A DNA stretch of 64,000 bases from a bacterium (lineage in GTDB: Archaea > Nanobdellota > Nanobdellia > Pacearchaeales > GW2011-AR1): assembly GCA_036787775.1 (NCBI GenBank), contig DAIQOR010000001.1, positions 30,521 through 94,520 of the forward strand, read 5' to 3'. Positions 26-52,653 of the stretch are shown here, in pieces. The notes under the pieces were generated by a model, which saw only the letters and a program-made list of their open reading frames with translations, had not been told where the DNA came from and searched no databases. Both the position numbers and the translations under genes were made by a program. Position 1 is the first letter of the stretch; each line of letters starts with the position of its first letter.

Positions 26-1180
26 ATGAAAATAGCCCACATAAATATGTTTTATCTTCCGACTTTTGGAGGGGTTGAAAAAGTGATGCAAGAGCTTGCA
101 GAACGTCAAGTAAAAGAGGGGCACGAAGTTCATGTCTATTGTTGTGATTCAGATAAATATAAAAGAATTGAGAAAAAAGAAGAAACAATAAACGGGGTGA
201 AAATACACCGGTTGCCCTACTGGATGAGGCTATCTTTAAACACATTTGTTTGGCCCTCTCTTTTATGGAGAGTAAAAGAAAAATTTGACATTTTACACAC
301 GCATGTGTCAGGCCACGATTATGTTTTATTTGCAGGAATCTTAGCAAAATTACAAAGTGCCAAACATGTTCACACAACGCATTGCCCCTGGACAGATTCA
401 TCATTTCGTCCAAAAATTTTAAGGCCTTTCATTTTTTTGAATGATTTATTTTTTAATAAATTGTCATTTAAATTAACAGATAAAATTTTTTCAATTACAC
501 CTTGGGAAGTTCCAATTTTAAAAAAATATTGCGAAGAAGAAAAAATAAAAGTTATTCCGAATGGCATGGATGAAATTCTTTTTAAAAAAATAAAAAATAA
601 TAATTTTAGAAAAAGAAACAAAATTACAGAAAAATATTTAGTTTTATTTTTTGGAAGATTAAATCCCACAAAAGGTCCAGAAAAGTTAGTACAGGTAGCA
701 ATTAATATTTCTAAAAAAAGAAAGGACATAGCTTTTGTGTGGGTCGGTCCAGATGAAGGCAAAGCAGAAGAAGTAAAAAGTTTAATTAAATCTCATAAAA
801 ATATGAAATATCTTGGGCCAATTCTGGGAAAGGAAAACATAGCCGAGATGTATCAATCCGCAAATGTTTATGTTCTTCCGAGTTACAGGGAAGGGTTACC
901 TTTAACATTATTCGAAGCGATGGCCTCTGGGCTCCCAATAGTTGCTTCTCCAGTAAATGGAATTCCTTATGAAATGAAAGAACCAGATAATGGATTTTTT
1001 GCTGAATACGGAAATCTTAAAGAACTCGAAAAAAATATTTTAAAAATTTTAGATAACCCCCAATTAGCAAAAAAAATATCCACAAAAAACATCCAAAAAT
1101 CTAAGCAATATTCTTGGGATTTAATTTCAAAAAATTACTTAAATGAATATAAAAACTTAAAAACGAAATTAAAGAGGTAA
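26..1180 (+). CDS. Glycosyltransferase family 4 (GT-B, retaining)
   Basis: C-terminal GT4 signature EGLPLTLFEAMASGLPIVAS (E-x7-E motif), 384 aa; first gene of glycosylation locus. Confidence 0.75.
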   Translation: MKIAHINMFYLPTFGGVEKVMQELAERQVKEGHEVHVYCCDSDKYKRIEKKEETINGVKIHRLPYWMRLSLNTFVWPSLLWRVKEKFDILHTHVSGHDYVLFAGILAKLQSAKHVHTTHCPWTDSSFRPKILRPFIFLNDLFFNKLSFKLTDKIFSITPWEVPILKKYCEEEKIKVIPNGMDEILFKKIKNNNFRKRNKITEKYLVLFFGRLNPTKGPEKLVQVAINISKKRKDIAFVWVGPDEGKAEEVKSLIKSHKNMKYLGPILGKENIAEMYQSANVYVLPSYREGLPLTLFEAMASGLPIVASPVNGIPYEMKEPDNGFFAEYGNLKELEKNILKILDNPQLAKKISTKNIQKSKQYSWDLISKNYLNEYKNLKTKLKR

Positions 1181-1184
1181 CTCT

Positions 1185-2726
1185 ATGAAAATAACGCTAA
1201 TTTCTACTTCCACTTTTCCCTCAGACCAAGGAATAAGAACAATCTCTGCAGTTTTGAAAAGAGAAAGTCATGAAGTAAAAATAATCTTCATGACTTTAGG
1301 CGAAGACTATTCCAGAAACTATTACGAAAAAGAATTATTACAACTTGAGAGATTATGCACGGGGAGCGATTTAATTGGGATAAATGCTTTTGCTTCGACA
1401 TCCGAAAGGGCAAAAAAAATAATAAAATTTCTAAAAAGCAAAATTCCAATTCCAATTATTTATGGAGGAGTACATCCAACACTTTTTCCAGAGAAATGCA
1501 TCGAGTTTGCAGATATGGTCTGCGTAGGAGAAGGGGAGGAAGCAATTATAGAATTAGTTAATGCTCTTGAAAAAGGAAAATCCATAAGTGAAATAAAAAA
1601 TATTTGGTCCAAAGAAAAAAGGGGGAAAATAATAACAAATACAGTTAGGAATTTATTGGATGAAATTGACAAATTACCTCTTCCAGATTATGATTTAGAA
1701 GATCATTATATCCTAAAAAATCAATCAATAAGGAAATTTAAAGAATCAGATTTAGTTGGACAAGTTTTATTTTTAACCGGAAGAGGTTGTCCTTATGGAT
1801 GCGATTATTGTAGCAATAGTTGTTTCAATGAACTTTACAAAGGAAAAAGAAAAAAAATACTCAGATTACATTCACCAAAATATATTATCGAAGGAATTTT
1901 ATATTTCAAAAAAAAGTTCAAGACATTAGGGTATTTTGATATTCGGGATGATACTTTTTCCATGAGACCCTTAGAAAACATAAAAGAATTTTGTAAACTT
2001 TACAAAGAAAGGGTAAACATGAGATTCAAATGTTTAGGAGACCCACACACTATCGACGACGAAAAAATAAAATTATTAGTAGATACAGGATGTACAGATA
2101 TAATCATTGGAATTCAAGGAAGTGAAAAAACAAACAAAGAAATTTATCATAGGAATCAAACAGATAGCGATGTTTTAAGGTCGGCAAAAATTTTACACAA
2201 ATATAAAGATAAGCTTGCAGTGATGTATGATATTATTGCATGTAACCCCTATGATAAGCCAGAATACATTTTAGATTTAATTGATTTAGTAAGAAAAATT
2301 CCCAAACCTTATTTTTTATCCGTCAATAATTTGGTTTTTTTCCCCGGTTCAGCTTTGTATAATCGTGCAAAAAGAGATGGATTGATAAAAACAGAAAAAG
2401 ATGCAGCATACCAATTAAATTATTGGGATAGAGCAAAGCACATAAAATTAAAAGGTAATAATGTTTATCTAAATTTAATTTTGAATTTAATGAGAGGAGC
2501 TGCTAAAGAAAATAGAATTGGTTTTTTACCTAATTTTTTGATGGATTGGGCATTGAAACCAGAAAGGGTTAAGTATCATCTTAAGCACCCAGCATTTTCA
2601 TATTTAGTTCTTTCAATTATTGAAATATATGATAATTTAAGAGAAAGAATATTAAAACCAATTTTTAGAGCTTTACCATTAAGTTTCAAAATATGGCATG
2701 ATAAAGTTAGATACCATTTCAAATAA
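1185..2726 (+). CDS. Cobalamin(B12)-binding domain radical SAM protein
   Basis: N-terminal B12-binding-like Rossmann segment followed by radical SAM CxxxCxxC (GCPYGCDYCSNS); 513 aa. Confidence 0.7.
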   Translation: MKITLISTSTFPSDQGIRTISAVLKRESHEVKIIFMTLGEDYSRNYYEKELLQLERLCTGSDLIGINAFASTSERAKKIIKFLKSKIPIPIIYGGVHPTLFPEKCIEFADMVCVGEGEEAIIELVNALEKGKSISEIKNIWSKEKRGKIITNTVRNLLDEIDKLPLPDYDLEDHYILKNQSIRKFKESDLVGQVLFLTGRGCPYGCDYCSNSCFNELYKGKRKKILRLHSPKYIIEGILYFKKKFKTLGYFDIRDDTFSMRPLENIKEFCKLYKERVNMRFKCLGDPHTIDDEKIKLLVDTGCTDIIIGIQGSEKTNKEIYHRNQTDSDVLRSAKILHKYKDKLAVMYDIIACNPYDKPEYILDLIDLVRKIPKPYFLSVNNLVFFPGSALYNRAKRDGLIKTEKDAAYQLNYWDRAKHIKLKGNNVYLNLILNLMRGAAKENRIGFLPNFLMDWALKPERVKYHLKHPAFSYLVLSIIEIYDNLRERILKPIFRALPLSFKIWHDKVRYHFK

Positions 2727-3466: not shown

Positions 3467-3661
3467 ATGAAAAAGAAAGCAAGTGAACTAACAAAAGGTG
3501 ATAAAATAAATTTAGCGAATAAGTCTTTTGTAATAAAAGAGTTCGAACTTTCTGAAATCGGAAAACACGGCAAGCGAAAATGTCGTATTGAAGCAGAATC
3601 CGAACAAGGCGAAAAGATAACAATTATCCGTCCGGAAGACTATCCAGTAGAGACCCTATGA
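3467..3661 (+). CDS. eIF-5A-like mini-protein (N-terminal SH3-like domain only; hypusine-loop-like GKHGK)
   Basis: 64 aa; TKGDKINL...SEIGKHGKRKCRIEAE closely parallels the aIF5A in this window (SKTGKHGHAKCRIEAM); stop TGA overlaps start of downstream GT2 (ATGA). Confidence 0.5.
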   Translation: MKKKASELTKGDKINLANKSFVIKEFELSEIGKHGKRKCRIEAESEQGEKITIIRPEDYPVETL

Positions 3662-4563
3662 TTAATATTATAATCACTTCCTACAACGAACCCAAAGCAA
3701 CCCTTCGGGCGGTAAAAACATTTTTAGACCAAAAAATTAAAGAAGATTTCAAAATAATTGTGGTAGACCCTTTCCAAGAAACAGAAGATTTTCTTAAAAA
3801 AAATATTAAAGATAAACGAGTAAACTTTTTTTTAGATCCGGGAGAGGGAAAAAGTTACGCACTAAATTTGTTATTCCAAGAAAATTTTTCTGAAAATAAA
3901 AACGATTTATTTATTCTAACTGATGGAGATGTTTACGTCTCAGAAAATTCCTTAAATGAAATAATAAAAGCATTCAAGGCTAAAGAAGTCGGATGTGTTG
4001 CAGGAAAACCCACAACTCTAGACTCAAAAAAAACAAAATATGGTTTCTGGTCTCACTTCGCGTTTGAAGGAATCCATCAAGCAAGAAAAAAATTATCCGA
4101 AAATAAAAAATTCTTTGAATGCTCGGGATATTTATTTGCCATAAGAAATTCAGTCCTATTTGACTTTCCTTTGGAATCTTCCGAAGATTCAATAATCCCT
4201 TATTTATTTTGGGAAAAAGGTTACAAAATAAAATATGTTCCAGAAGCAGAAGTTTATGTGAAAAATCCAGACAATTGGAAAGATTGGTTAAATCAAAAAG
4301 TAAGGAACATTAAAGGTCACGAAAATTTAAACAAAATCGCTCCCAACATGCCACGAACTAAATCTCTATTTAACGAAATAAAACATGGATGGAATTTTTT
4401 ATTTTTTTATCCAAAGAACATCCAAGAATTATTCTGGACAATTCAATTATACTTCGCAAGGTTATACCTTTATTTCAAAGCCTTCAAAGAATTAAGATTA
4501 AACAAAAAATATTCCGATGGTTGGAGAGAAACCGAAATAAATTCCACAAAACCTTTAGATTAA
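3658..4563 (+). CDS. Glycosyltransferase family 2 (GT-A)
   Basis: IIITSYNEP N-terminus, DxD-like TDGDVYV, 301 aa. Confidence 0.7.
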   Translation: MINIIITSYNEPKATLRAVKTFLDQKIKEDFKIIVVDPFQETEDFLKKNIKDKRVNFFLDPGEGKSYALNLLFQENFSENKNDLFILTDGDVYVSENSLNEIIKAFKAKEVGCVAGKPTTLDSKKTKYGFWSHFAFEGIHQARKKLSENKKFFECSGYLFAIRNSVLFDFPLESSEDSIIPYLFWEKGYKIKYVPEAEVYVKNPDNWKDWLNQKVRNIKGHENLNKIAPNMPRTKSLFNEIKHGWNFLFFYPKNIQELFWTIQLYFARLYLYFKAFKELRLNKKYSDGWRETEINSTKPLD

Positions 4564-4962
4564 TTTTTTTAGCGCTTTTTTTAACTCTTCAACTGACTCA
4601 AAAATTTTCATAGAACCAATTAAAATTGCGCTCAAATATTCAATTGCATTTTCAACCGGCTCGTCAGTTTTTATTCCAAAAGTAGGCACGCCTTTCGCAT
4701 AAGCATAACCAATCTCCCAAGCAGTTCCAGCACCAACATGAAGCCCGTCAAGATTTGCCAAAACGAAATCACAATTTTCAAAACCTTTAATTATATCTCC
4801 TTCGAAAATTTTTTTTACATCTTGAACCTCGCTATATAATCCAACATCTCTATGGGGCAAAAAAGTTTCAAAACCCAAAGATTCGCACAATTCAGCAAGA
4901 ACTTCCAATCGTTCTCTTTCTGTCTTGTTCGTCAATTTTCCCGCAATATACACTTTCTTCAT
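4555..4962 (-). CDS. Nucleoside 2-deoxyribosyltransferase-like protein (PF05014-like)
   Basis: MKKVYIAGKL... and DGLHVGAGTAWEIGYAYAKGVP motif typical of NDT-like Rossmann family; 135 aa. Confidence 0.55.
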   Translation of the reverse strand: MKKVYIAGKLTNKTERERLEVLAELCESLGFETFLPHRDVGLYSEVQDVKKIFEGDIIKGFENCDFVLANLDGLHVGAGTAWEIGYAYAKGVPTFGIKTDEPVENAIEYLSAILIGSMKIFESVEELKKALKKLI

Positions 4963-4995
4963 AAACCTTATATAACGAACCCCGTTTTAAAGTTT

Positions 4996-6357
4996 ATGAA
5001 GCTTGTAATAATTAAATTAGGCGCATTAGGAGATGTAGTCCGAACGCTCCCTTTAGCAAAAGCGCTAAAACAAAAATATCCCGAGGCAGAATTAACCTGG
5101 ATAACAAATCCAAATGCAATCACAATTTTGGAAAATAATCCCCATATAGATAAAATTTATTCTTCAAATGAAGAAATTTCAGAAACATTTGATAAATTAT
5201 ATAATTTTGATATTGATGATGAAGCAACAAATTTATCATCCAATATTGAATCAAAAGAAAAGTTCGGATTTTACAATTCAGACGGATTTGTTTCAGCTTT
5301 TAATTTAGGTGCAGAATATTACCTAAACACACTTTTTGATGATGAACTAAAAAAGGAAAATAAAAAAACTTATCAAGAGATGATGTTTATGGTTGCCGAA
5401 ATTCCTTATAATCAAGAACACGAGACAATTTATTTGACCAAGGAAGAAATAAAATATGGAAAAAAATTTATTCAAGAAAATAAACTTTTTGAAAAGAAAA
5501 TAATCGGAATAAATATTGGAGCTTCCTCAAGGTGGCCATCAAAAAAATTACATGAAGAAAATTTAAAAGAATTAATAAAAAAATTATCTAAACACGAAAA
5601 TCACATAATTCTTTTAGGAGGTCCAAACGAAGTTGAATATCTTGAAACAATTCATAAAGAATTTCAAGAGTTTCCAAATATAATCAAAAATAATCCTTCA
5701 AATTCTCTAAAAGAATTTACCTCAATAATCAATATCTGCGACGAATTAATTTGTGGAGATACTTTAGCACTACATCTTTCAATCGCGCTAAAAAAACCAA
5801 CAATTGGATTATTTTTCTGTACATCTCATTCCGAAGTTGAAGATTATAATCTACTTAAAAAAATAATTTCTCCAAAATTTGATGAATTTTTTCCAGAGAA
5901 GATGGATCAATATGATGAAGAGTTAGTAAAAAGTATTTCCTGCGAGATGATTTTAAATTCATTAAATAAACCTGTTAAAGTAGCAAATGCCATGATAAAA
6001 AATGGAGACAAATTTTTAGTAATCAAAAGAAAAGATGAAGAAATTCATGCAGGGAAATGGATGTTTCCTGGAGGAGTTTTAGAAGATAATGAAAATTTTG
6101 AAGAAGCATTAAAAAGAGAAATAAAAGAAGAAGTTGGTTTAGAAATAAATCAAATAATAAAAGAAATATCAAATTATAAATACCTTCGACCTGACGGAAA
6201 AATTACCCTTGGAAAAAGTTATTTAGTTAATACAGAAGATTTTAATGTTGAAACTAATGGAGAAGTCGAAGATTTTAAATGGGTGACTTTAGAAGAATTC
6301 GAAAAATTAGATTCAATAGAAGGTTTGGCGGAAGAATTATTAGATACTTTTGAATAA
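4996..6357 (+). CDS. GT9 (heptosyltransferase-like) glycosyltransferase fused to C-terminal Nudix hydrolase domain
   Basis: Start moved to internal ATG (MKLVIIKLGALGDVVRTLP = GT9 N-terminal signature); C-terminal Nudix box GGVLEDNENFEEALKREIKEEVGLE (GX5EX7REUXEEXGU). ORF-track start 4852 overlaps the convergent gene. Confidence 0.65.
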   Translation: MKLVIIKLGALGDVVRTLPLAKALKQKYPEAELTWITNPNAITILENNPHIDKIYSSNEEISETFDKLYNFDIDDEATNLSSNIESKEKFGFYNSDGFVSAFNLGAEYYLNTLFDDELKKENKKTYQEMMFMVAEIPYNQEHETIYLTKEEIKYGKKFIQENKLFEKKIIGINIGASSRWPSKKLHEENLKELIKKLSKHENHIILLGGPNEVEYLETIHKEFQEFPNIIKNNPSNSLKEFTSIINICDELICGDTLALHLSIALKKPTIGLFFCTSHSEVEDYNLLKKIISPKFDEFFPEKMDQYDEELVKSISCEMILNSLNKPVKVANAMIKNGDKFLVIKRKDEEIHAGKWMFPGGVLEDNENFEEALKREIKEEVGLEINQIIKEISNYKYLRPDGKITLGKSYLVNTEDFNVETNGEVEDFKWVTLEEFEKLDSIEGLAEELLDTFE

Positions 6358-6391
6358 AAACAAATAAAAACGCTTTTTGGCTAAATTTATT

Positions 6392-7924
6392 ATGGACGAA
6401 ACTCAGAAAGAATTAGAAAATAGAAAAAAGAAAATTCTAAACAAAATTATTCCCTTCATGAAGGAACCACTAAATCTTGCTTTAGTTACAGTTTTATTAT
6501 TCGCATTTGTCTTAAGATTATATTATTTCATAAAAGTAGGAAACCAGCCTCTTTGGTGGGATGAACTTTGTTATGGAAGTTTAGCAAAAAATTTTATAAC
6601 ACACACGTGGGATAGCACAACCTTAATCTTAGGAGAAACGGCAATAAGGCCAGTCCTTTTTCCCTTACTTTGGTCAATTCTTTTAAGAGTCGGAATTCCA
6701 GAAGGAGGAGTAAGATTTTTTTTAGAGTTTATTCCTTCAATTCTTTCTGTATTTTTTGTTTATCTAATTGGCAAAGAAACATTTAATAAAAGGGTAGGGA
6801 TTATATCCGCATTTATTTTTTCAGTTTTATGGATACACTTATTTTATACAGTTAGATTATTAACACATGCCCCCGCACTAGTATTTTTATTTTCCAGCAT
6901 ATATTTGTTTATGAAAGCTACGGAAACAAAATTTAATTTCAATCTTTTCACCATATCATTAATCCTTCTTTCTCTCAGCACATTAATGAGATATCCAAAG
7001 GGAATAATTTTCTTTGTGTATTTATTTATGTTGGTAATAGATAAAAAATTACTATTAAAAAATTTCAAATTTTGGAAAGCGGGCATTTTAGGAATCTCTC
7101 CAATGATCGTGTTTTTTATTTATAATTTTGTAAAATACCAAAATATATTTCCTGCCCTTTTAGGAGGAGGATATCTGGATAAAGGGGGATCCCCCCTTAT
7201 TAAACCGATTGCGTTTAATCTTTTAAATTTTATTCCAGTTTATCTTAAAACAACTTTCTTTATATTTTTCTTAATTGGTTTATTGTTAATTTTATTTGAA
7301 TTAATCACAGGATACAATTTAATACCAAAGATAAAAAAACTGAAAAATAGTCTAATTTTAATTTTAATTTTAATTTTAATTTATTCATTTTTCATATTTT
7401 ATATGCGAGCTGCTGAAGATAGATGGTTATTTCCAACAATTTTACCATTAGCAATTATAACTTCTTTAGGAATTGATTTTGTCTATAATCAAATAAAAAA
7501 ATATAACAAACAAATAGCAGTCTTATGCGTGATTCTTATTTTAGGATTTGGAGCTTATTCGCAATTAACTTTTGCAGATTCGCTGATAAAAGGAAAGCAA
7601 GAAAGTTACCTTCAGATGAGACAGGCATTCGAATGGATAGGTTCTAACACCCCTGAAGATTCAATCATAGCCGGTTTAGGGATAGAACCTTATACTGTTT
7701 ACTATGCAAAAAGAGATTATATCAATCTCCCCCAGAATTATTCGGAAGTTGGAGTGGCTTTGGAGGCAGATTATCTTGTAGCACATCTTTTTGCGGGAAA
7801 TCCTCCAAAATATTTAAGTGAATATCTTTCTGAAAATCAAGATATTTGGCAGCCCTTAAATGCCTGGTTTTTAGATGAAGCAAAAACTCAACCAGCAGTT
7901 ATTTTATATAAAAAGGTTCAATAG
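6392..7924 (+). CDS. GT-C fold membrane glycosyltransferase (ArnT/PMT-like, GT39/GT83-like)
   Basis: About 12 predicted TM helices, first-loop WWDE acidic motif; ORF track starts at TTG 6377, first ATG at 6392. Confidence 0.55.
   Translation: MDETQKELENRKKKILNKIIPFMKEPLNLALVTVLLFAFVLRLYYFIKVGNQPLWWDELCYGSLAKNFITHTWDSTTLILGETAIRPVLFPLLWSILLRVGIPEGGVRFFLEFIPSILSVFFVYLIGKETFNKRVGIISAFIFSVLWIHLFYTVRLLTHAPALVFLFSSIYLFMKATETKFNFNLFTISLILLSLSTLMRYPKGIIFFVYLFMLVIDKKLLLKNFKFWKAGILGISPMIVFFIYNFVKYQNIFPALLGGGYLDKGGSPLIKPIAFNLLNFIPVYLKTTFFIFFLIGLLLILFELITGYNLIPKIKKLKNSLILILILILIYSFFIFYMRAAEDRWLFPTILPLAIITSLGIDFVYNQIKKYNKQIAVLCVILILGFGAYSQLTFADSLIKGKQESYLQMRQAFEWIGSNTPEDSIIAGLGIEPYTVYYAKRDYINLPQNYSEVGVALEADYLVAHLFAGNPPKYLSEYLSENQDIWQPLNAWFLDEAKTQPAVILYKKVQ
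7354..7383 (+). repeat. Tandem hexanucleotide (aatttt)x4-5 inside GT-C gene, encoding (LI)n
   Basis: aattttaattttaattttaattttaattta read directly; in-frame. Confidence 0.8.
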
Positions 7925-7983: not shown

Positions 7984-9036
7984 ATGAAAGTCTTGATAAC
8001 TGGCGGAGCAGGATTTATAGGAACTAACGCAGCAGAATTTTATGCTTCAAGAGGGGATGAAGTAGTTCTTTTTGATAATTTAAGTAGGAGAGGAAGCGAA
8101 GCAAATTTATCTTATTTAGAAAAAAGTTTAGGAGATAAAATAAATTTCATAGAAGGAGATATTAGAAATAGGTGGGACATTGAACGAGCTATTTGTAATA
8201 ACCGAGATACGGATTTGATTTTACATTTAGCTGCACAAGTCGCGGTAACAACTTCTGTAAATGACCCACGAGAGGATTTTGATATTAATGCTTTAGGAAC
8301 TTTTAATGTTTTGGAAGCCATGAGAAGTTTAAAAAATAAGTGCGGAGCAAGTCCCATTTTTATTTACGCCTCCACAAATAAAGTTTATGGGGGTATGGAA
8401 GATGTCGGAATAATCGAAAAAGATGGGAGATACACATATGAAAATTTACCAGAAGGAATTAACGAAGAAAGAGGTTTGGATTTTCATAGCCCTTATGGAT
8501 GTTCTAAGGGAACAGGTGATCAGTATGTAAGAGATTACTCTAGGATTTATTGTTTAGATACAATTGTAATGAGGCAATCTTGTATTTATGGAGAAAGACA
8601 ATTCGGGGTTGAAGATCAAGGTTGGTTGGCTTGGTTTACAATTGCACAAGCTTTAGGAAAACCAATAACTGTTTATGGGGACGGAAAGCAAGTACGAGAC
8701 GTTTTATGGGTTAATGATTTAATTGATGCTTACGAAAAAGCAAGACAGAATATAGAAAAAACTAAAGGACAAATATATAATCTTGGAGGGGGCCATAAAA
8801 ATCAACTTTCCTTATTAGAATCTTTTAGTTTACTTAAATCTTTATCTGGAAAAGATATTCCTTTAAAGTATGAAGGATGGAGGCCGGGGGACCAGAAAGT
8901 TTGTTTTATGGATATTTCTAAAGCAGAAAACGATTTTAAATGGAAACCCACAATCTCTCCTTCAGAAGGAATGAAAAAATTATATGATTGGGTGAATTCA
9001 AACAAATCCGAGATAGAAAAATATTTCCCAAATTAA
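7984..9036 (+). CDS. NAD-dependent sugar epimerase/dehydratase (extended SDR; CDP-paratose-2-epimerase / UDP-Glc-4-epimerase-like)
   Basis: VLITGGAGFIGTNAAEF Rossmann, YASTNKVYG and catalytic YxxxK-type region (SPYGCSKGTGDQYV). Confidence 0.7.
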   Translation: MKVLITGGAGFIGTNAAEFYASRGDEVVLFDNLSRRGSEANLSYLEKSLGDKINFIEGDIRNRWDIERAICNNRDTDLILHLAAQVAVTTSVNDPREDFDINALGTFNVLEAMRSLKNKCGASPIFIYASTNKVYGGMEDVGIIEKDGRYTYENLPEGINEERGLDFHSPYGCSKGTGDQYVRDYSRIYCLDTIVMRQSCIYGERQFGVEDQGWLAWFTIAQALGKPITVYGDGKQVRDVLWVNDLIDAYEKARQNIEKTKGQIYNLGGGHKNQLSLLESFSLLKSLSGKDIPLKYEGWRPGDQKVCFMDISKAENDFKWKPTISPSEGMKKLYDWVNSNKSEIEKYFPN

Positions 9037-9037
9037 A

Positions 9038-10171
9038 ATGAAAATAATTCTTTTTTATGAGTTTCTTTCTGAACAAGGGGGTCTAGAGCGAGAGATAATT
9101 AATCACGCAACCTTTCTAAAAGAGGAAGGGTATGAGGTTTTAATTTTAACTTGTCATAAAAGTAAAGATATAGAAAAACTTTTACCCTTCGGAGACTTAA
9201 AAATTGAACAAATATCCTCGGTAAAAACTCCTTTTCAAACAATCAATCTCGCCTTATGTTTTTTAGGTTTTAATAAAATTAAAGAATTTAATCCAGATTT
9301 ATTTCTCAGTTATAGTTTTCCATGCAATTTTCTTTTAAGAAAAAAAAGACAGAAAAAAATAAATTATGTGAACCATTTTCCGCATTATCTTTATCTGAAA
9401 GGAAAAGAAAAGTTAGAATGGGCAAATTCTTTTGATAGAAAAGTTTCACTTGTCTTGGAATTTTTTCTGGGAAGATGGTTAAGAAAGAGAGACAAAGAAT
9501 TATTGAAAGAAAATAAATTATTATTTGTAAATAGCGTATTCACTAAGAAAAAAATAGATGAAATTTATCAAGTAAATTCTATTGTGAGTTATCCACCTAT
9601 AGATCCAAGAATAAAGCCAGTAAAATCAAATCTTCAAGAAAAATTTATTTTCTCTTGTGGAAGAATTATTCCCGATAAAAAATATGAGTGGTTAATTGAA
9701 TCTTGCTCTAAGATGAAAAATAAATTGCCCCTTTATCTTGCAGGCCAAGGAGATAAAAATTATATAGGTTCATTAAAAAATTTAGCTAAGAAATATAATG
9801 TTAGATTAAAATTTTTAGGCAAGTTGGATACGATGAAAATAATAAAATATTATTCTTCTGCAGAAGTTTTCGCTTTTTCGACCCCTGGAGAAGATTTTGG
9901 ATTAGTGCCTGCAGAAAGTTTAACTTGCGGAACTCCTTGTGTTGTGTGGGAAGATTCTTCAGGACCAACAGAACAAATTGTTGAAGGAATTAACGGATTT
10001 TTAGCAAAACCATATGATTTACAAAGTTTTGCAAATAAGTTGGATTTAGTCTTAGATAATAAATTTAAAGAAAAAAATAAAAAGAAAATTTTGGATTCTT
10101 CAAAAAAATTTTCGGCAGAAGAAGTAAAGAAAAGTTTTATTAAGGAGGTAAATTTAATTTTTAAAAGATAA
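9038..10171 (+). CDS. Glycosyltransferase family 4
   Basis: C-terminal GEDFGLVPAESLTCGTPCVV GT4 motif; 377 aa. Confidence 0.7.
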   Translation: MKIILFYEFLSEQGGLEREIINHATFLKEEGYEVLILTCHKSKDIEKLLPFGDLKIEQISSVKTPFQTINLALCFLGFNKIKEFNPDLFLSYSFPCNFLLRKKRQKKINYVNHFPHYLYLKGKEKLEWANSFDRKVSLVLEFFLGRWLRKRDKELLKENKLLFVNSVFTKKKIDEIYQVNSIVSYPPIDPRIKPVKSNLQEKFIFSCGRIIPDKKYEWLIESCSKMKNKLPLYLAGQGDKNYIGSLKNLAKKYNVRLKFLGKLDTMKIIKYYSSAEVFAFSTPGEDFGLVPAESLTCGTPCVVWEDSSGPTEQIVEGINGFLAKPYDLQSFANKLDLVLDNKFKEKNKKKILDSSKKFSAEEVKKSFIKEVNLIFKR

Positions 10172-10173
10172 AA

Positions 10174-11184
10174 ATGGAAGAATTAAAAAAATTTTATTCT
10201 GGAAAAAAGGTTCTTGTAACGGGGGGGGCAGGATGTATTGGAAGTTGTTTAGTTGAAAAATTAGATGAATTTGGGGCACAAATATCAATCTTAGATAATA
10301 TGATGAGGGGTCAGGAAGCCGTTAGAAATTTAGAAGGAGTATTAAATTCTACAAGTACTCCTCCAAAGATATTTATCAAAGATATCACAGATGTTTTCCA
10401 AGTAAAGAATATTTTTAAAAAAGAAAATGGGTTTGATATTGTATTCCATTTAGCAGCATTACCTAGCCACAGACTTGCTTTAGAAGATCCAAGAGCTTAC
10501 ATAGAAACAGATGTAATGGGAACCACAAACATTTTGGAGGTTGCGAGATTATCAAAAACTCCAACGGTAGTTTTTGCTTCGTCAAACAAAGTTTATGGAA
10601 AGCAAACGCCCCCATTTAGGGAAGATAAGCCTTGTTTACCAGAAGGTCCTTATGCTTTAGCAAAGTTTCAATCAGAACAAATATGTCAAATGTATTCTAC
10701 TTATTGGGGGTTAAATACTCCTGTCGTAAGATTCCATCATGTTCTTGGACCACGAACTCAACCAGATAGAGAAATTTCTATTTTTACGGAACAAATAATT
10801 AAAGGAGAGACTCCAAAAGTTCATGGGGTTTATGAAGGAGAGATATTTATTTCCTGCGCAGCAGATTACACAGATGTTAATGATGCTGTTGAAGGAGCTT
10901 TAAGAGCTGGAATGATTAAAGGATTTGATACATTTAATTTAGCTACTGGAAAAGTTACAACTGTTGAGGATATTGCAAAAAAGATTATGGTCAAATTAGG
11001 AAAAGATATCCCAATAGAATATAAAAAAATGTTATCTCACGAAACTTTAGTTCATTTATCAGATATTTCAAAAGCAGAAAAGATTCTTGGATGGACTCCA
11101 AAAAGAACGGTTGATGAATCAGTAAGAGATTATGTTGATTGGAGATTAAAATTTGGTAAAAGGCCAGACGCCTTTTATAAATAA
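10174..11184 (+). CDS. NAD-dependent nucleotide-sugar epimerase/dehydratase (extended SDR)
   Basis: VLVTGGAGCIGSCLVEKL Rossmann, ASSNKVYG, YALAK catalytic motif. Confidence 0.7.
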   Translation: MEELKKFYSGKKVLVTGGAGCIGSCLVEKLDEFGAQISILDNMMRGQEAVRNLEGVLNSTSTPPKIFIKDITDVFQVKNIFKKENGFDIVFHLAALPSHRLALEDPRAYIETDVMGTTNILEVARLSKTPTVVFASSNKVYGKQTPPFREDKPCLPEGPYALAKFQSEQICQMYSTYWGLNTPVVRFHHVLGPRTQPDREISIFTEQIIKGETPKVHGVYEGEIFISCAADYTDVNDAVEGALRAGMIKGFDTFNLATGKVTTVEDIAKKIMVKLGKDIPIEYKKMLSHETLVHLSDISKAEKILGWTPKRTVDESVRDYVDWRLKFGKRPDAFYK

Positions 11185-11189
11185 TTAAT

Positions 11190-12581
11190 TTAAACAAAAT
11201 CTATTGTCAAAGCCATTCTTATATCTTCAAAGAACGTTTTTTCTTTAAAACTTTTTTTAAGTCTTTTTAAAATAAAATTAGGATTAAGATAAACTTTTCG
11301 GTAAAATTTTCTAAAATATTTTTCAATTAAAGGCCAAGATAAATTTTCATGATTATAAATTGATGAAGGCGTTGAATAAAATTTAAATTTTTCCCAGTCA
11401 TGCGTTTTAATCAAATTTTTTTTATCCAATTCATTAAACATTTCTGTGGCAGGTAAAGGAATTGTAATACTTATTTTTGCCAGATCCAAATTAAGTTCTT
11501 TTGCAAAATCAATTGTTTGTTGCATTGTTTCTTTAGTTTCTCCCGGAAGTCCAATCATAAAAAATCCCGCAACTTCCAGTTTTGCCTTTTTAGCCAATTT
11601 TACTGAATTTCTAACTTGCTCTAAAGTTATACCTTTTTTAATATTATTCAAAATTTGTTGGTTTCCAGATTCAATTCCAAAATAAACTCGATAACATCCA
11701 GCTCTTTTCATTTTGTCTAATAATTCGAAGTCAACTCTATCCACTCTTATTCCTGTGATTGTACTCCATGCAAGCTTATTCTTTTTTTCAATCAGCAAAT
11801 CACAAATTTTTTTAGCCCGAGTCATATCTGTGGTAAATCCATCATCTGTGAGATGAACTTCTTTAAAACCCATTTTTTCTATCTTGCTAAACTCTTGTGC
11901 CACTCTTTCAGGAGATTTTACTCTAAACGTTCGTCCAAAACAACTTTTATTACAATAGATGCATCCATAAACACAACCTCTGGAAGTTTCAAGCCAGGCC
12001 ACAGGGTTATTTTTTGCAATTGCCGACGGGACTTTATACTTTTGAATTTCATAGAGGAAATGAGCTGGAAAAGGTAATTCATCTAAATCTTTAATAAAAT
12101 CCGCCCGTTTATTTATTTTGATCTCATTCTTGACCCTATATCCAACCCCTTTAATAAAATTTAATTTTTTCCCTTCAACAAGTTCTTGAATCACAAAATC
12201 TCCTTCCCCAATCACAACGATATCTAAAATTGTTTCCTCTAAAACTTTTTCTGGAAAAGAAGAACAATGGGGCCCCCCGCCAACAAGAATTATTTTTTCA
12301 TTAAAATTTTTAACAATCTTTGCAACCCGATTAGCTTCATTAATTAAAGGTGTAACAAAACTAATTCCCACATAATCTGGATTAAATTCTTCTAATAATT
12401 TTGAAAATTTTTTTTCATCATAAAGATTAAAATCAAAAATTTTCACTTGATGTTTTTTTTCAGTTAAACTTCCAGCAATACAGGCAAGACCTAAAGGAGG
12501 TGTGGAAGGAGCAATCCCTTTCAAACTGGTCTTTTCATAAATTTTTTCAAAAGGAAGATTAACTAAAATTATTTTTTTCAT
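11190..12581 (-). CDS. Cobalamin(B12)-binding domain radical SAM protein
   Basis: N-terminal B12-binding-like domain; CxxxCxxC = GCVYGCIYCNKS; 463 aa; paralogous in architecture to 1185..2726. Confidence 0.7.
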   Translation of the reverse strand: MKKIILVNLPFEKIYEKTSLKGIAPSTPPLGLACIAGSLTEKKHQVKIFDFNLYDEKKFSKLLEEFNPDYVGISFVTPLINEANRVAKIVKNFNEKIILVGGGPHCSSFPEKVLEETILDIVVIGEGDFVIQELVEGKKLNFIKGVGYRVKNEIKINKRADFIKDLDELPFPAHFLYEIQKYKVPSAIAKNNPVAWLETSRGCVYGCIYCNKSCFGRTFRVKSPERVAQEFSKIEKMGFKEVHLTDDGFTTDMTRAKKICDLLIEKKNKLAWSTITGIRVDRVDFELLDKMKRAGCYRVYFGIESGNQQILNNIKKGITLEQVRNSVKLAKKAKLEVAGFFMIGLPGETKETMQQTIDFAKELNLDLAKISITIPLPATEMFNELDKKNLIKTHDWEKFKFYSTPSSIYNHENLSWPLIEKYFRKFYRKVYLNPNFILKRLKKSFKEKTFFEDIRMALTIDFV

Positions 12582-13291
12582 TTTTTAATAAAACCGAGCC
12601 GGTGTTTGAAAATTAACCACAACATTCCTAATCCTATTACAAATGTTTTTTTGAAATCTCCCGTAGCTGAAGAAACTCCGACTCTTCTAAGATATCTAAC
12701 AGGAATTTCAATAAATTTAATATTATTTCGGATAACTTGCAACATCATATCTGGATTAAATTCCATCCCAGTAATTGTAAATTTATTTTTAATTTTCTCA
12801 TAAGCTTTCCGATTAATTAATCTATAAGTGCATCCAACATCTGAAAGAAAATTAGTTCCAAACATAAATTCAACCATTTTTGCAACAGCAAAATTTCCCC
12901 ACTTCAAAAACCACCCCATGTTTGCGCCACGACCAATCATAATCGAAGTTGTCCGAGTTCCAAAAACCACGTCAAAATTATCTGAATAAGCCAAAAATTT
13001 CACCACATCATTTGGGTCAAAAGTTCCATCTGGTTCGGACATAATTATCAAATCTCCAGAAGATTCGTACAACGCTCTACGATACCCCCAACCGAACCCT
13101 TGTTTTTTTTCCAAAAAATATTTCGCATTCGTTTTCAAAATCTCTTCTTTCGTGCCTTCACGAGCGTTGTTATCCACAGCAATCACTTCGTCAACATAAC
13201 CTGTTTTAAACAACCCATCAATAAATTCCCTTATGGAATCTTTTTCATTATACGTCGAAAAAACAACCGAAACCTTTTTTCCTTTCCACAT
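12578..13291 (-). CDS. GT2 polyprenyl-phosphate glycosyltransferase (Dpm1/AglD/AglJ-like)
   Basis: VSVVFSTYNEKDSI, VIAVDNNAREGT, 237 aa soluble GT-A typical of dolichol-phosphate sugar synthases. Confidence 0.65.
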   Translation of the reverse strand: MWKGKKVSVVFSTYNEKDSIREFIDGLFKTGYVDEVIAVDNNAREGTKEEILKTNAKYFLEKKQGFGWGYRRALYESSGDLIIMSEPDGTFDPNDVVKFLAYSDNFDVVFGTRTTSIMIGRGANMGWFLKWGNFAVAKMVEFMFGTNFLSDVGCTYRLINRKAYEKIKNKFTITGMEFNPDMMLQVIRNNIKFIEIPVRYLRRVGVSSATGDFKKTFVIGLGMLWLIFKHRLGFIKK

Positions 13292-14999: not shown

Positions 15000-15526
15000 T
15001 TTAAAATTTCAATTTCAAACAAAGCTTCTGAACAAGGAAGAATCCAACAAAAAAATCGCTCATAGATTTCCGGATTTAAATTTATTAAAGGATTCATAAA
15101 AATGTTTAAAAATGGAAATGCTAATCTCGTAAAATTTAATTTTTTACTTATTTCTTTAATAAATATTAATTCCTTTGGCTTTTCATAATTTTTGTTGAAT
15201 TTTTGATAATAATCAAAAGTAAAGTATGAAAAGAAAGTTTTGTGAGTAGCGTCTCGATAAGTCACGCCACAACTAAAATGGGGGACACGAATTATCCACT
15301 TAGCATTATCTTTAGAAATTCTCTTCATTTCAAGCAATGTTCTTTCAAAGTCATTTACATGTTCTAAAAAATGCGACGTATAAATCTCATCAAATTCATT
15401 TGCTTTAAATGGCCACGGAAATTTATTTGTATCAAAAACAACATCAACTCCTTTTTGGTCAACGAAATCCAAATTTACATAGCCTTCTTTTATATCTTCC
15501 CCACAGCCCAAATTAAGTTTTTTCAT
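14996..15526 (-). CDS. Class I SAM-dependent methyltransferase (Methyltransf_11-like)
   Basis: LNLGCGEDIKEGYVNLD motif I, 176 aa. Confidence 0.65.
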   Translation of the reverse strand: MKKLNLGCGEDIKEGYVNLDFVDQKGVDVVFDTNKFPWPFKANEFDEIYTSHFLEHVNDFERTLLEMKRISKDNAKWIIRVPHFSCGVTYRDATHKTFFSYFTFDYYQKFNKNYEKPKELIFIKEISKKLNFTRLAFPFLNIFMNPLINLNPEIYERFFCWILPCSEALFEIEILK

Positions 15527-18548: not shown

Positions 18549-18549
18549 T

Positions 18550-52413: not shown

Positions 52414-52653
52414 ATGAAATTAAGTCAGATAACTTTTAACGAAGAATCAAAACCAGATATTCTTGAACTTTTTGGAAAAACTATTGATGAAGAAGGTTAT
52501 ATTGTTGAAATTGAAAATGTTGAACAAAGAGTATTAACTCCAAAAGGAGAAGAGATACATATTTCTGAATGGGCCGGAGTTATGAAAGGTTCTGAAGCAT
52601 TTGTAAAATCAGATACATTTTCTTTAATGGAAATAGCAAAGAAAATAGAGTGA
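52414..52653 (+). CDS. Hypothetical small protein (79 aa)
   Basis: GGAGGA SD-like 8 nt upstream; stop overlaps GTG of next ORF. Confidence 0.3.
   Translation: MKLSQITFNEESKPDILELFGKTIDEEGYIVEIENVEQRVLTPKGEEIHISEWAGVMKGSEAFVKSDTFSLMEIAKKIE

What the first reader, a model, noticed from the sequence alone, without database searches (positions are those of the whole stretch)
1185..2726. Two paralogous cobalamin-binding radical-SAM enzymes embedded in the glycan locus
ORFs 1185..2726 and 11190..12581 share one architecture. Each has an N-terminal B12-binding-like domain followed by a CxxxCxxC radical-SAM core (GCPYGCDYCSNS and GCVYGCIYCNKS). Class-B radical-SAM enzymes typically C-methylate or rearrange unactivated carbons, for example in aminoglycoside or hopanoid tailoring. 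Two of them sit between glycosyltransferases. This points to C-methylated or branched sugars, or an unusual lipid carrier, which is not a described feature of archaeal N-glycosylation.
Basis: partly seen in the sequence, partly recalled or inferred. Interest (0 to 1): 0.65.

Follow-up and report, generated by a model that had tools for sequence, protein, structure and literature searches.

The report
Two B12 radical-SAM glycan-tailoring enzymes
A tiny symbiotic archaeon (Pacearchaeota) carries two distantly related vitamin-B12-type radical enzymes inside its protein-glycosylation gene cluster, each paired with enzymes that load a sugar onto a lipid carrier and transfer it outside the cell. This suggests its surface sugars are chemically remodelled in a way not yet described for archaeal N-glycosylation.

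Summary
ORF A (1185-2726, +) and ORF B (11190-12581, on the minus strand) both pass Pfam cut-offs for B12-binding plus Radical_SAM domains, and both carry the quoted CxxxCxxC motifs. Both fold like class-B radical SAM enzymes (MgmA, TsrM, CysS, TokK, AprD4). They are only 26% identical, so they are old superfamily relatives and not recent duplicates. Neither is an orthologue of HpnJ, BchE, MiaB, MgmA or AprD4.

The host is a Pacearchaeota (DPANN) archaeon. B is the last gene of a tight 8-gene operon led by aglB. A is unusually conserved (median 66% identity), more so than AglB. A 301-aa GT2 accompanies A in 37 of 39 loci, and a GT4 lies directly upstream in 34 of 58.

Each enzyme sits in the same kind of module: rSAM + GT2 + PMT_2 (GT-C). 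The best reading is that each modifies an unactivated sugar carbon on a lipid- or nucleotide-linked monosaccharide before a GT-C transfers it outside the cell.

The chemistry is unresolved. The options are C-methylation, HpnJ-like rearrangement, and AprD4-like dehydration. I rate it a new variant of a known kind, of moderate interest.

The parts
26..1180 (+). GT4-family (Glycos_transf_1 / Glyco_transf_4) glycosyltransferase, the upstream partner of A; its stop codon lies 4 nt before A's start
   Evidence: Pfam. An orthologue at >=55% identity lies directly upstream of A, on the same strand, in 34 of 58 loci that have enough upstream sequence. Median identity to the window protein is 72%.
1185..2726 (+). 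Radical SAM enzyme A (513 aa): N-terminal B12-binding Rossmann domain (~1-130), linker, radical SAM core (~196-400) and a clade-specific helical C-terminal extension (~410-513)
1785..1820 (+). GCPYGCDYCSNS: the [4Fe-4S] cluster-binding CxxxCxxC motif of A (Cys202, Cys206, Cys209), invariant in 26 orthologues
   Evidence: In some orthologues an intein is inserted immediately before the third Cys.
3658..4563 (+). GT2 glycosyltransferase (301 aa), the most constant companion of A
   Evidence: Pfam PF00535/PF13641/PF13632/PF13506. A relative (32-72% identity) lies downstream of A in 37 of 39 loci of >=9 kb.
4852..6357 (+). GT9 (heptosyltransferase-like) fused to a NUDIX hydrolase domain
   Evidence: Recurs downstream of the GT2 in many A loci.
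6377..7924 (+). PMT_2 family GT-C membrane glycosyltransferase (515 aa, about 11-13 hydrophobic segments), belonging to A's module
   Evidence: Pfam PF13231, 45.3 bits against a cut-off of 26.1. Hydropathy. Recurs after the GT2 in A loci.
7984..9036 (+). NDP-sugar 4,6-dehydratase/epimerase-type extended SDR
9038..10171 (+). GT1/GT4-type glycosyltransferase
10174..11184 (+). NDP-sugar epimerase/dehydratase-type SDR; its stop lies 5 nt from B's stop (convergent)
   Evidence: SDR genes flank B orthologues in L007, L009, L097 and L098.
11190..12581 (-). Radical SAM enzyme B (463 aa): B12-binding Rossmann domain plus radical SAM core; last gene of the aglB-led operon
11943..11978 (-). GCVYGCIYCNKS: the cluster-binding CxxxCxxC motif of B (Cys203, Cys207, Cys210), invariant in 33 homologues
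12578..13291 (-). Small GT2 (237 aa), a candidate dolichyl-phosphate hexose synthase; its stop overlaps B's start by 4 nt
   Evidence: Best NCBIfam matches are AglJ (79 bits) and dolichyl-phosphate hexose transferase (49 bits), both below cut-off. The only PDB sequence hits are Pyrococcus Dol-P-Man synthase 5mlz and ArnC 9hwj. Orthologues at 38-52% identity sit near B in L009, L096 and L097.
13314..14999 (-). PMT_2 family GT-C membrane glycosyltransferase (561 aa, about 10 hydrophobic segments), belonging to B's module
   Evidence: PMT_2 genes sit near B orthologues in L007, L009, L096 and L097.
14996..15526 (-). Class-I SAM methyltransferase (176 aa)
   Evidence: Similar methyltransferases sit beside the small GT2 in L096 and L097.
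15523..16311 (-). GT2 glycosyltransferase (262 aa)
16316..17542 (-). Wzx/AglR-like polysaccharide flippase (Polysacc_synt)
17544..18641 (-). AglH/WecA/MraY-family polyprenyl-phosphate sugar-phosphate transferase. The true start is probably the ATG at 18548, which would remove the overlap with aglB.
18550..21306 (-). AglB/STT3 oligosaccharyltransferase, first gene of the 8-gene same-strand array that ends with B

Best explanation
A and B are two distinct, uncharacterised subfamilies of class-B (cobalamin-type) radical SAM enzymes. Both are dedicated to cell-surface glycan biosynthesis in a Pacearchaeota (DPANN) archaeon.

Each is the tailoring component of a 'side-branch' glycosylation module built the same way:
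1. A GT2 loads a monosaccharide onto a polyprenyl (dolichyl) phosphate at the cytoplasmic face.
2. The radical SAM enzyme uses a 5'-deoxyadenosyl radical to attack an unactivated C-H of that sugar. This happens either on the lipid carrier or on the sugar's nucleotide precursor. The most likely outcome is transfer of a methyl group from methylcobalamin, giving a C-methyl (branched or chain-extended) sugar.
3. A flippase moves the product across the membrane.
4. A PMT_2-type GT-C enzyme transfers the modified sugar onto the glycan or protein outside the cell.

B's module is the distal end of the aglB operon, so its product most likely decorates the N-glycan. A's module (GT4-A ... GT2 ... GT-C) is a strongly conserved core feature of Pacearchaeota.

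Shown: domain architecture, fold, lack of orthology to characterised families, operon structure, conserved gene partnerships.
Inferred: cobalamin binding, a lipid-linked substrate, and the chemistry.
For: Architecture and fold:
- PF02310 and PF04055 score above cut-off in both proteins.
- The AlphaFold models are confident (pLDDT 87.6 and 91.1) and show a 5-strand/5-helix N-terminal Rossmann domain followed by a radical SAM barrel. This is the class-I B12-rSAM layout described in PMC12931638.
- The top structural neighbours are MgmA, TsrM, CysS, TokK, OxsB and AprD4.
- NCBIfam models of cobalamin-dependent families align through the N-domain of both proteins. The AprD4 model aligns only to the radical SAM core: A 162-411, B 152-391.

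Operon: aglB to B is eight same-strand genes with junctions of -4 to +22 nt, and the GT2 stop overlaps B's start.

Partnership for A (85 orthologous loci):
- A GT2_301-like gene is present in 37 of 39 loci of >=9 kb.
- A GT4 orthologue lies directly upstream in 34 of 58.
- PMT_2 commonly follows the GT2.
- L067 joins AglB-AglH...GT4-A in another genome.

Partnership for B (eight distinct contexts, in archaea, CPR and other bacteria):
- A small GT2 (233-248 aa) is adjacent or near in 6.
- PMT_2 is present in 5.
- SDR genes are present in 5.
- GT2 orthologues at 38-52% identity persist even beside B homologues that are only 51-63% identical.

The small GT2 resembles polyprenyl-phosphate glycosyltransferases only: AglJ and Dol-P-hexose transferase in NCBIfam, DPMS and ArnC in the PDB.

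Precedents:
- Haloferax AglD (Dol-P-Man synthase), AglR (flippase) and AglS (Dol-P-Man mannosyltransferase) add the last N-glycan sugar from a separate Dol-P carrier (PMC3871713).
- HpnJ and calditol synthase are rSAM enzymes proposed to remodel a sugar already attached to a lipid (PMC13459092).
- Most characterised class-B enzymes are methylases, including the sugar C-methylases GenK, GenD1 and MoeK5.
Against: - No experiment shows cobalamin binding. AprD4 and ArsL sit in the same sequence space without binding cobalamin, and AprD4 is structurally as close as MgmA to both proteins.
- B's best curated-family match is HpnJ (231.6 bits), then BchE (178.3). Both are non-methylating.
- The lower-axial-residue criterion was ambiguous. 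In A, TokK Trp76 aligns to invariant Ser71, but OxsB Asn186 aligns to Phe69.
- The GT2 partners score below all curated cut-offs, and the 301-aa GT2 of A has no PDB sequence hit and no predicted TM segment.
- The adjacent GT2s in L006 and L095 are not orthologous to the window's GT2_237.
- NDP-sugar SDRs and nucleotidyltransferases beside B homologues fit action on a nucleotide sugar at least as well as on a lipid-linked sugar.
- A's strong conservation (greater than AglB's) is unusual for a glycan-decorating enzyme.
Confidence: 0.5

Rival explanations
1. HpnJ/calditol-synthase-like rearrangement. B (and possibly A) abstracts a hydrogen from a lipid-linked hexose or hexosamine and drives ring opening and re-closure (ring contraction). 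This converts the sugar into a carbocyclic cyclitol head group or glycan residue, with no methyl transfer.
For: - HpnJ is B's best curated match, and the alignment is nearly full length: 231.6 bits, B 75-448 against model 76-450 of 472.
- In hopanoid biosynthesis HpnJ also works after a GT2 (HpnI) that attaches the sugar to a lipid. Calditol synthase is proposed to do the same in archaea.
- A's GT2 partner weakly matches the lipid-glycosylating GT21 family PF13506.
Against: - 231.6 bits is far below the HpnJ cut-off of 577.6.
- A scores only 74 bits.
- There are no hopanoid or tetraether lipid genes in the window or in related loci.
- HpnJ's own mechanism is unproven.
- A GT-C partner would need a polyprenyl-phosphate-linked donor, and a carbocycle lacks the anomeric phosphate linkage needed for transfer.
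Confidence: 0.15
2. AprD4-like, cobalamin-independent radical diol dehydratase. The rSAM dehydrates a vicinal diol of the sugar to a keto-deoxy intermediate, and a neighbouring NAD(P)H-dependent SDR reduces it (the AprD3 role). The result is a deoxy sugar in the glycan.
For: - It is the second-best PDB sequence hit for B, at 1.3e-23.
- SDR genes lie immediately beside B homologues in L007, L009 and L098, and next to the GT2 in L097. One converges on B in the window.
- AprD4 works with the NADPH reductase AprD3 on a glycoside (PMC5461906).
Against: - The AprD4 NCBIfam model scores 112.5 (B) and 31.6 (A) against a cut-off of 500. It aligns only to the radical SAM core and not to the N-terminal domain.
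- Both N-domains pass the B12-binding Pfam cut-off, and A's matches true corrinoid domains.
- The flanking SDRs are of the NDP-sugar epimerase/dehydratase type, which is common in any glycan locus.
Confidence: 0.15
3. Lipid modification. The enzymes methylate or cyclise the isoprenoid chain of the dolichol carrier or of membrane lipids (like Gmm, GrsA/B or HpnP/HpnR) and do not act on the sugar.
For: - Many archaeal B12-rSAM enzymes act on isoprenoid lipids (GrsA/B, Gmm).
- A's best, though weak, NCBIfam hit is the ladderane-lipid B12-rSAM family TIGR04072, at 93.5 bits.
- Both proteins are strongly basic (net charge +21 and +18), and A has an amphipathic C-terminal helix.
Against: - All scores are far below cut-offs.
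- Every conserved neighbour is a glycosyltransferase or sugar-nucleotide enzyme. No lipid-biosynthesis gene appears in about 90 loci.
- DPANN archaea generally lack lipid synthesis (general knowledge, not tested here).
Confidence: 0.06
4. A is a housekeeping enzyme unrelated to glycans (for example, one that modifies an RNA, protein or cofactor). Its neighbours would then reflect only the frozen gene order of small DPANN genomes.
For: - A is more conserved than AglB or AglH: median 66% against 44-59%.
- It is interrupted by an intein in some lineages, as is typical of core proteins.
- A bona fide QueC (archaeosine pathway) converges on it in about half of the loci.
Against: - QueC is on the opposite strand and is absent from half of the loci. 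The GT2 (37 of 39) and the GT4 (1-5 nt upstream where examined) are far more constant partners.
- In other genomes GDP-heptose pathway genes are inserted between A and the GT2.
- There is no similarity to MiaB, RimO, Tyw1 or other housekeeping rSAM families above cut-off.
Confidence: 0.07

Closest known systems
Class-B (cobalamin-dependent) radical SAM sugar C-methyltransferases: GenK and GenD1 (gentamicin), MoeK5 (moenomycin, a lipid-linked sugar)
   Same: The same two-domain architecture (B12-binding Rossmann plus radical SAM core). They act on unactivated carbons of sugars within glycosyltransferase-rich clusters. MoeK5's substrate is a lipid-phosphoglycerate-linked sugar (named among class-B methylases; its similarity to lipid methylases is noted).
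   Different: Those are antibiotic pathways of actinomycetes, whereas this is a primary cell-surface/N-glycosylation operon of an archaeon. Sequence relatedness could not be tested directly because no curated model or structure of GenK, GenD1 or MoeK5 was available. Neither A nor B reaches the cut-off of any curated methylase family.
HpnJ (TIGR03471) with HpnI (GT2): hopanoid cyclitol-ether formation; and archaeal calditol synthase Cds
   Same: HpnJ is B's best curated family match. Both cases pair a B12-type rSAM with a GT2, and a lipid-attached sugar is the proposed substrate.
   Different: The score is 231.6 against a cut-off of 577.6. There is no hopanoid or GDGT context. A GT-C transferase and aglB are present here but not in the hpn system.
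MgmA/QCMT (PDB 9CCB), the methyl-coenzyme M reductase glutamine C-methyltransferase
   Different: Its substrate is a peptide. The TIGR04014 score is 159 (B) and 22 (A) against a cut-off of 360. There are no methanogenesis genes here.
AprD4/AprD3 radical SAM diol dehydratase plus reductase (apramycin C3' deoxygenation)
   Same: It acts on a glycoside. It is structurally as close as MgmA. SDR genes neighbour B's homologues.
   Different: AprD4 does not bind cobalamin. Its family model aligns only to the radical SAM core of A and B, far below cut-off.
Three-component extracytoplasmic glycosylation: AglD/AglR/AglS (Haloferax N-glycan terminal mannose); bacterial ArnC/ArnD/ArnT and GtrA/GtrB/GtrC
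   Same: A small GT2 resembling Dol-P/Und-P sugar synthases, a Wzx-like flippase and a PMT_2-type GT-C sit in one operon with aglB. ArnD is a precedent for modifying the sugar while it is on the lipid carrier (general knowledge).
   Different: No known system of this type contains a radical SAM enzyme. Here an rSAM gene is translationally coupled to the GT2 (a 4-nt overlap).

Membership tests
Radical SAM superfamily (PF04055) | CxxxCxxC cluster-binding motif at the start of a partial TIM barrel, with a profile match above the gathering score | tested here: met
   A scores 52.2 bits and B 96.3 bits against a cut-off of 29.5. The motif cysteines are invariant in 26 (A) and 33 (B) homologues and were read directly.
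Class-B / cobalamin-dependent radical SAM (class-I architecture) | An N-terminal Rossmann-type B12-binding domain (PF02310) preceding the radical SAM domain | tested here: met
Class-B / cobalamin-dependent radical SAM (class-I architecture) | Overall fold closest to solved cobalamin-bound class-B enzymes | tested here: met
Class-B / cobalamin-dependent radical SAM (class-I architecture) | Actual binding of a base-off cobamide about 11 A from the cluster | not testable with these tools
   This needs reconstituted protein or a holo-structure. AprD4 and ArsL show that the fold alone is not proof.
Radical (Csp3) methylase subset of class B | A hydrophobic residue beneath the corrin lower face (Trp76 in TokK, Leu in Mmp10) | tested here: inconclusive
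   Profile alignments place TokK Trp76 opposite invariant Ser71 of A, but OxsB Asn186 opposite Phe69. MgmA, a true methylase, lacks such a residue. No model coordinates were available for superposition.
HpnJ (TIGR03471) | Score at or above the equivalog cut-off of 577.6 bits, and a hopanoid (hpn/shc) gene context | tested here: not met
   B scores 231.6 bits and A 74.3 bits. There are no hopanoid genes in the window or in related loci.
BchE (TIGR02026) | Score at or above 481.35 bits | tested here: not met
   B scores 178.3 and A 74.6.
MiaB/RimO methylthiotransferases (TIGR00089 and equivalogs) | Score at or above 251-357 bits | tested here: not met
   B scores 41.6-62.9 bits. A has no hit listed among its 24 families with E <= 0.01. 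Structurally, MiaB and RimO rank below the class-B enzymes.
AprD4 diol dehydratase (NF033070) | Score at or above 500 bits over the full length | tested here: not met
   B scores 112.5 (residues 152-391 only) and A 31.6 (residues 162-411 only).
MgmA (TIGR04014) | Score at or above 360 bits, and an organism with methyl-coenzyme M reductase | tested here: not met
   B scores 159.2 and A 21.9. The host is a Pacearchaeota archaeon by database naming, and no methanogenesis genes were seen among the window ORFs scanned.
GT2 / flippase / GT-C lipid-linked monosaccharide module (AglD-AglR-AglS, ArnC-ArnT, GtrABC type) | A GT2 of the polyprenyl-phosphate sugar synthase type | tested here: inconclusive
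   GT2_237's best hits are AglJ (79.4 bits, cut-off 325) and Dol-P hexose transferase (48.7, cut-off 375). Its only PDB hits are DPMS 5mlz (2e-6) and ArnC 9hwj (3e-4). GT2_301 gave no informative hit.
GT2 / flippase / GT-C lipid-linked monosaccharide module (AglD-AglR-AglS, ArnC-ArnT, GtrABC type) | A multi-spanning GT-C transferase (PMT_2/ArnT-like) and a flippase encoded alongside | tested here: met
   PF13231 scores above cut-off in both PMT_2 proteins, each with about 10-13 hydrophobic segments. A Polysacc_synt flippase lies in the same operon.
GT2 / flippase / GT-C lipid-linked monosaccharide module (AglD-AglR-AglS, ArnC-ArnT, GtrABC type) | A polyprenyl-phosphate-linked monosaccharide as the donor actually used | not testable with these tools
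   This requires lipid-linked sugar analysis or in vitro assays.

The most novel reading that the evidence does not exclude
Pacearchaeota, and by horizontal transfer some CPR and other bacteria, use B12-dependent radical SAM enzymes to remodel dolichyl/polyprenyl-phosphate-linked monosaccharides at unactivated carbons. A GT-C enzyme then places these sugars on N-glycans or surface proteins. This would be a fourth component of the widespread GT2/flippase/GT-C system, producing C-methyl-branched, chain-extended or carbocyclic sugars not yet seen in archaeal glycoproteins. Because DPANN archaea are not expected to make cobalamin, a core and highly conserved part of their cell surface would depend on a vitamin supplied by the host or community.
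Probability: 0.3. Interest if true: 0.75.

Novelty: new variant of a known kind. Interest (0 to 1): 0.55.

Why it matters
Radical SAM tailoring of sugars is known from antibiotic pathways and from two lipid head-group systems (HpnJ, calditol). It is not known from protein N-glycosylation or from the GT2/flippase/GT-C route that bacteria and archaea use to decorate surface glycans.

Here an rSAM gene is translationally coupled to the GT2 inside an aglB operon. A second rSAM family is among the most conserved genes of the Pacearchaeota glycan locus, and two thirds of related loci carry further B12-rSAM paralogues.

If the proposed role is right:
- It predicts new sugar structures on DPANN cell surfaces, the interface with their hosts.
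- It gives two compact, soluble, orphan class-B enzymes with obvious candidate substrates for enzymology.
- It points to a cobalamin dependence of envelope biogenesis in genome-reduced symbionts.

Tried and rejected
- Orthology to characterised families. All NCBIfam equivalogs (HpnJ, BchE, MgmA, PhpK/Sden_1168, HpnR, BzaD, AprD4, KedN5, TsrM, ApyD, ArsL, MiaB/RimO) score far below cut-off, so none can be assigned.
- The lower-axial-residue test for methylase against non-methylase. The alignments conflict, and the rule has an exception in MgmA. Model coordinates were not exposed, so no superposition was possible.
- A functional link between A and the adjacent QueC (QueE, in the same pathway, is a radical SAM enzyme). 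I rejected this as a primary explanation. QueC passes its own equivalog cut-off, lies on the opposite strand, and is absent from about half of the loci.
- Heptose as A's substrate. GDP-heptose pathway genes follow A in several genomes, but the window has none, so heptose cannot be the obligate substrate.
- A single-protein scan of species-representative genomes returned only two loci, because the patterns were too specific. The planned taxonomic census of A was therefore replaced by 80 metagenome loci.
- The viral-contig scan for B gave only two distant (30% identical) relatives.
- Fusion partners of distant A relatives. Two turned out to be inteins and not functional domains, and one was a class-I methyltransferase. 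These are informative about conservation but not about the substrate.
- The AFDB fold library was unavailable.
- Rfam found no riboswitch or other regulatory RNA.
- Sequence searches of both PMT_2 proteins and of GT2_301 against the PDB found nothing.
- Literature searches for rSAM enzymes in aglB clusters, DPANN glycosylation or surface polysaccharide pathways found nothing relevant.
Full report
OBSERVATION. The two ORFs exist as described. ORF A is 1185-2726 on the plus strand (513 aa). ORF B is 11190-12581 on the minus strand (463 aa); the finding omits the strand. The quoted motifs read exactly: GCPYGCDYCSNS at nt 1785-1820 and GCVYGCIYCNKS at nt 11943-11978. Both proteins pass the Pfam gathering cut-offs for B12-binding (PF02310: 51.2 and 70.3 bits, cut-off 32.1) and Radical_SAM (PF04055: 52.2 and 96.3 bits, cut-off 29.5). 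They share only 26% identity (E = 8e-25). They are therefore old relatives within one superfamily, not recent duplicates.

ORGANISM AND LOCUS. Identical proteins are recorded from Candidatus Pacearchaeota on a 301-kb contig. The window has about 31% G+C and archaeal housekeeping genes: prefoldin, an aIF-2B-family protein, SecY, ribosomal proteins and a Tyw1/Taw1-like rSAM.

Positions 26-21306 form a glycan locus:
- Plus strand: GT4 (26-1180), A, GT2 (3658-4563), a GT9-NUDIX fusion (4852-6357), PMT_2 GT-C (6377-7924), SDR (7984-9036), GT1 (9038-10171), SDR (10174-11184).
- Minus strand: AglB/STT3 (18550-21306), an AglH-like phosphotransferase, a Wzx-like flippase, GT2, a class-I methyltransferase, PMT_2 GT-C (13314-14999), a small GT2 (12578-13291), and B.

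The eight minus-strand genes have junctions of -4 to +22 nt, taking the ATG at 18548 as the AglH start. The small GT2's stop overlaps B's start codon. B is therefore the last gene of an aglB-led operon.

WHAT THE PROTEINS ARE. No curated NCBIfam family claims either protein.
- A's best hit is the ladderane-lipid B12-rSAM family, at 93.5 bits against a cut-off of 360.
- B's best hits are HpnJ (231.6 against 577.6), BchE (178.3 against 481), a P-methyltransferase family (160.6) and MgmA (159.2 against 360).
- MiaB/RimO models score 63 bits or less.

By sequence against the PDB, A has almost nothing (TokK and OxsB at E~1e-3). B's best hits are 9CCB (5e-27) and AprD4 (1e-23). 9CCB is MgmA, the cobalamin-dependent glutamine C-methyltransferase of methyl-coenzyme M reductase.

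The AlphaFold models are confident: A has pLDDT 87.6 and B 91.1. Both show a five-strand/five-helix Rossmann domain followed by the radical SAM barrel. This is the class-I layout of B12-dependent rSAM enzymes reviewed in PMC12931638. Structural neighbours:
- Foldseek for A: TsrM, OxsB, MgmA, AprD4, TokK.
- Foldseek for B: MgmA, AprD4, TsrM, CysS, TokK, OxsB.

Models of cobalamin-dependent families align through the N-domains of A and B, whereas the AprD4 model aligns only to the radical SAM core. I therefore accept class-B architecture as shown. Cobalamin binding is likely but unproven, because AprD4 and ArsL share this sequence space without binding cobalamin.

FAMILY A.
- More than 120 database clusters are 65-76% identical over the full length, nearly all from Pacearchaeota, Nanoarchaeota or unclassified archaeal bins.
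- Beyond this tight clade, an exhaustive search found 1,907 representatives at E < 1e-30, about 35-42% identical over residues 1-410. The helical C-terminal extension (about 410-513) is specific to the close clade.
- I examined 85 orthologous loci. Among the 39 loci of at least 9 kb, a relative of the 301-aa GT2 is present in 37 and the GT4 orthologue in 23. Further B12-rSAM paralogues (24-42% identical to B) occur in 25, and SPASM-type rSAMs in 22.
- Of 58 loci with enough upstream sequence, 34 have the GT4 orthologue directly upstream on the same strand. The gap is one nucleotide in the loci inspected and four in the window.
- A PMT_2 GT-C usually follows the GT2.
- Median identity to the window proteins is 72% for GT4 and 66% for A. 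It is 59% for QueC, 49% for the GT2, and 44-59% for AglB and AglH. The GT4-A pair is thus more constrained than the oligosaccharyltransferase itself.
- Locus L067 joins AglB-AglH-...-GT4-A in a different arrangement.
- In several genomes, GDP-heptose pathway genes lie between A and the GT2: GmhA-like SIS, a GHMP kinase, and a 744-aa HAD-nucleotidyltransferase-epimerase fusion. The window has none, so heptose is not an obligate substrate.

FAMILY B.
- Homologues at 50-74% identity occur in Pacearchaeota and also in CPR (Falkowbacteria), Elusimicrobia and bins named Nitrospirota and Planctomycetota.
- There are eight distinct contexts: the window plus L006, L007/8, L009/10, L095, L096, L097 and L098. 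A 233-248-aa GT2 is adjacent or near in six, a PMT_2 gene in five, and NDP-sugar-type SDRs in five. Class-I methyltransferases sit beside the GT2 in the window, L096 and L097.
- The GT2s in L009, L096 and L097 are orthologous to the window's (38-52% identity), although B there is only 51-63% identical. Those in L006 and L095 are not orthologous.
- The window GT2 is most like AglJ and dolichyl-phosphate hexose transferases, though below cut-off. Its only PDB sequence hits are Pyrococcus Dol-P-mannose synthase and ArnC.

MECHANISTIC READING. Both rSAMs sit in the same kind of module: rSAM + GT2 + PMT_2-type GT-C, with a flippase in B's operon. This is the layout of the known route for adding a sugar outside the cell from a separate lipid carrier. 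In Haloferax, AglD makes Dol-P-mannose, AglR helps flip it and AglS transfers it to the N-glycan (PMC3871713). ArnC/ArnT and GtrABC are the bacterial counterparts (general knowledge).

I propose that each rSAM modifies the monosaccharide at an unactivated carbon before it is flipped, either on the lipid carrier or on its nucleotide precursor. Precedents for rSAM action on lipid-attached sugars are HpnJ and calditol synthase (PMC13459092). A precedent for modifying a carrier-linked sugar is ArnD (general knowledge).

C-methylation is the most likely chemistry. The reasons are class-B precedent (GenK, GenD1, MoeK5 and most characterised members) and the fact that both N-domains look like genuine corrinoid domains. 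Two alternatives are live:
- An HpnJ-like rearrangement, since HpnJ is B's closest curated relative.
- An AprD4-like dehydration completed by a neighbouring SDR, since AprD4 is a structural tie and needs the NADPH reductase AprD3 (PMC5461906).

The proposed diagnostic residue under the corrin could not decide between them.

COMPARISON AND NOVELTY. Neither protein belongs to any characterised family; the membership table gives the tests. They work like class-B sugar or lipid-sugar tailoring enzymes. What is new is the setting: an rSAM translationally coupled to a Dol-P-sugar-synthase-like GT2 inside an aglB operon, and a second, very conserved rSAM tied to a GT4/GT2/GT-C set across Pacearchaeota. 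Full-text searches found no description of radical SAM enzymes in aglB clusters, DPANN glycosylation or surface-polysaccharide pathways. That library excludes most subscription papers, so the negative result is not absolute. Public annotation calls both proteins only 'B12-binding domain-containing radical SAM protein'. I rate this a new variant of a known kind.

VERDICT. Interest is 0.55. The finding is not astonishing to a radical SAM or glycobiology specialist. It is widespread, unusually conserved and directly testable, and it has a clear candidate substrate.

Noticed in passing
Proteins P0241 (950 aa) and P0251 (742 aa), orthologues of window 1185-2726; the insertion point corresponds to window nt ~1806-1809: Two orthologues of A (52-54% identical) carry an intein, in P0241 with a LAGLIDADG homing-endonuclease domain, inserted inside the radical SAM CxxxCxxC motif. 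In P0241 the N-extein ends ...GCPNSCTY and the C-extein starts with the third cluster cysteine, which therefore serves as the +1 splice nucleophile.
   Followed up: partly
window 2719-3417 (-): A bona fide QueC (7-cyano-7-deazaguanine synthase; TIGR00364, 158.8 bits against a cut-off of 150.3) converges on A, and their 3' ends overlap by 8 nt. It holds the same position in about half of the Pacearchaeota loci (20 of 39). It looks like conserved synteny of a housekeeping gene and not a functional link.
   Followed up: partly
window 4555-4962 (-): A 135-aa nucleoside 2-deoxyribosyltransferase-family ORF (PF05014, 61 bits) lies on the opposite strand between the GT2 and the GT9-NUDIX gene. It recurs at that position in many related loci as an unlabelled 134-148-aa minus-strand ORF. 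It overlaps the annotated start of the GT9-NUDIX ORF, whose real start may be the ATG at 4996. Its role is unknown.
   Followed up: partly
window 4852-6357 (+); L001-L004: A GT9 (heptosyltransferase-like) domain is fused to a C-terminal NUDIX hydrolase domain. The window has no heptose-nucleotide pathway. Sister genomes carry GmhA-like SIS, a GHMP kinase and a 744-aa HAD + nucleotidyltransferase + epimerase triple fusion next to A.
   Followed up: partly
L001 1-922; L002 3959-6828; L004 5401-6795; protein P0339: Pacearchaeota glycan loci are rich in radical SAM genes, with up to three extra B12-rSAM paralogues and SPASM-type rSAMs within 7 kb of A. L001 encodes an 876-aa DegT-type sugar aminotransferase fused to a B12-rSAM. 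P0339 is an A-like B12-rSAM fused to a class-I SAM methyltransferase.
   Followed up: partly
Family B homologues P0197 (Falkowbacteria), P0214 and P0233 (Elusimicrobia), P0185 (Anaerohalosphaeraceae); loci L007-L010, L096-L098: B's family crosses domains: 50-63% identity between a DPANN archaeon and CPR or other bacteria, sometimes together with an orthologous small GT2. This suggests horizontal transfer of the GT2-rSAM pair. Some bins named Nitrospiraceae or Enterobacteriaceae at 66-71% identity may be mis-binned archaeal contigs.
   Followed up: partly
window 55007-55987 (-): A third radical SAM gene lies in the window: a Tyw1/Taw1-like wyosine-base formation enzyme (PF04055 + PF08608). It is a housekeeping tRNA-modification enzyme unrelated to A and B.
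   Followed up: no
window 17544-18641 (-) and 18550-21306 (-): The mechanically called AglH-like ORF (TTG start at 18641) overlaps the end of aglB by 92 nt. An in-frame ATG at 18548 would start it 2 nt after the aglB stop and is probably the real start.
   Followed up: partly
window 26291-27721 (-), 43759-44502 (-), 52650-53468 (+): Three sizeable ORFs (476, 247 and 272 aa) have no Pfam match at E <= 0.001.
   Followed up: no
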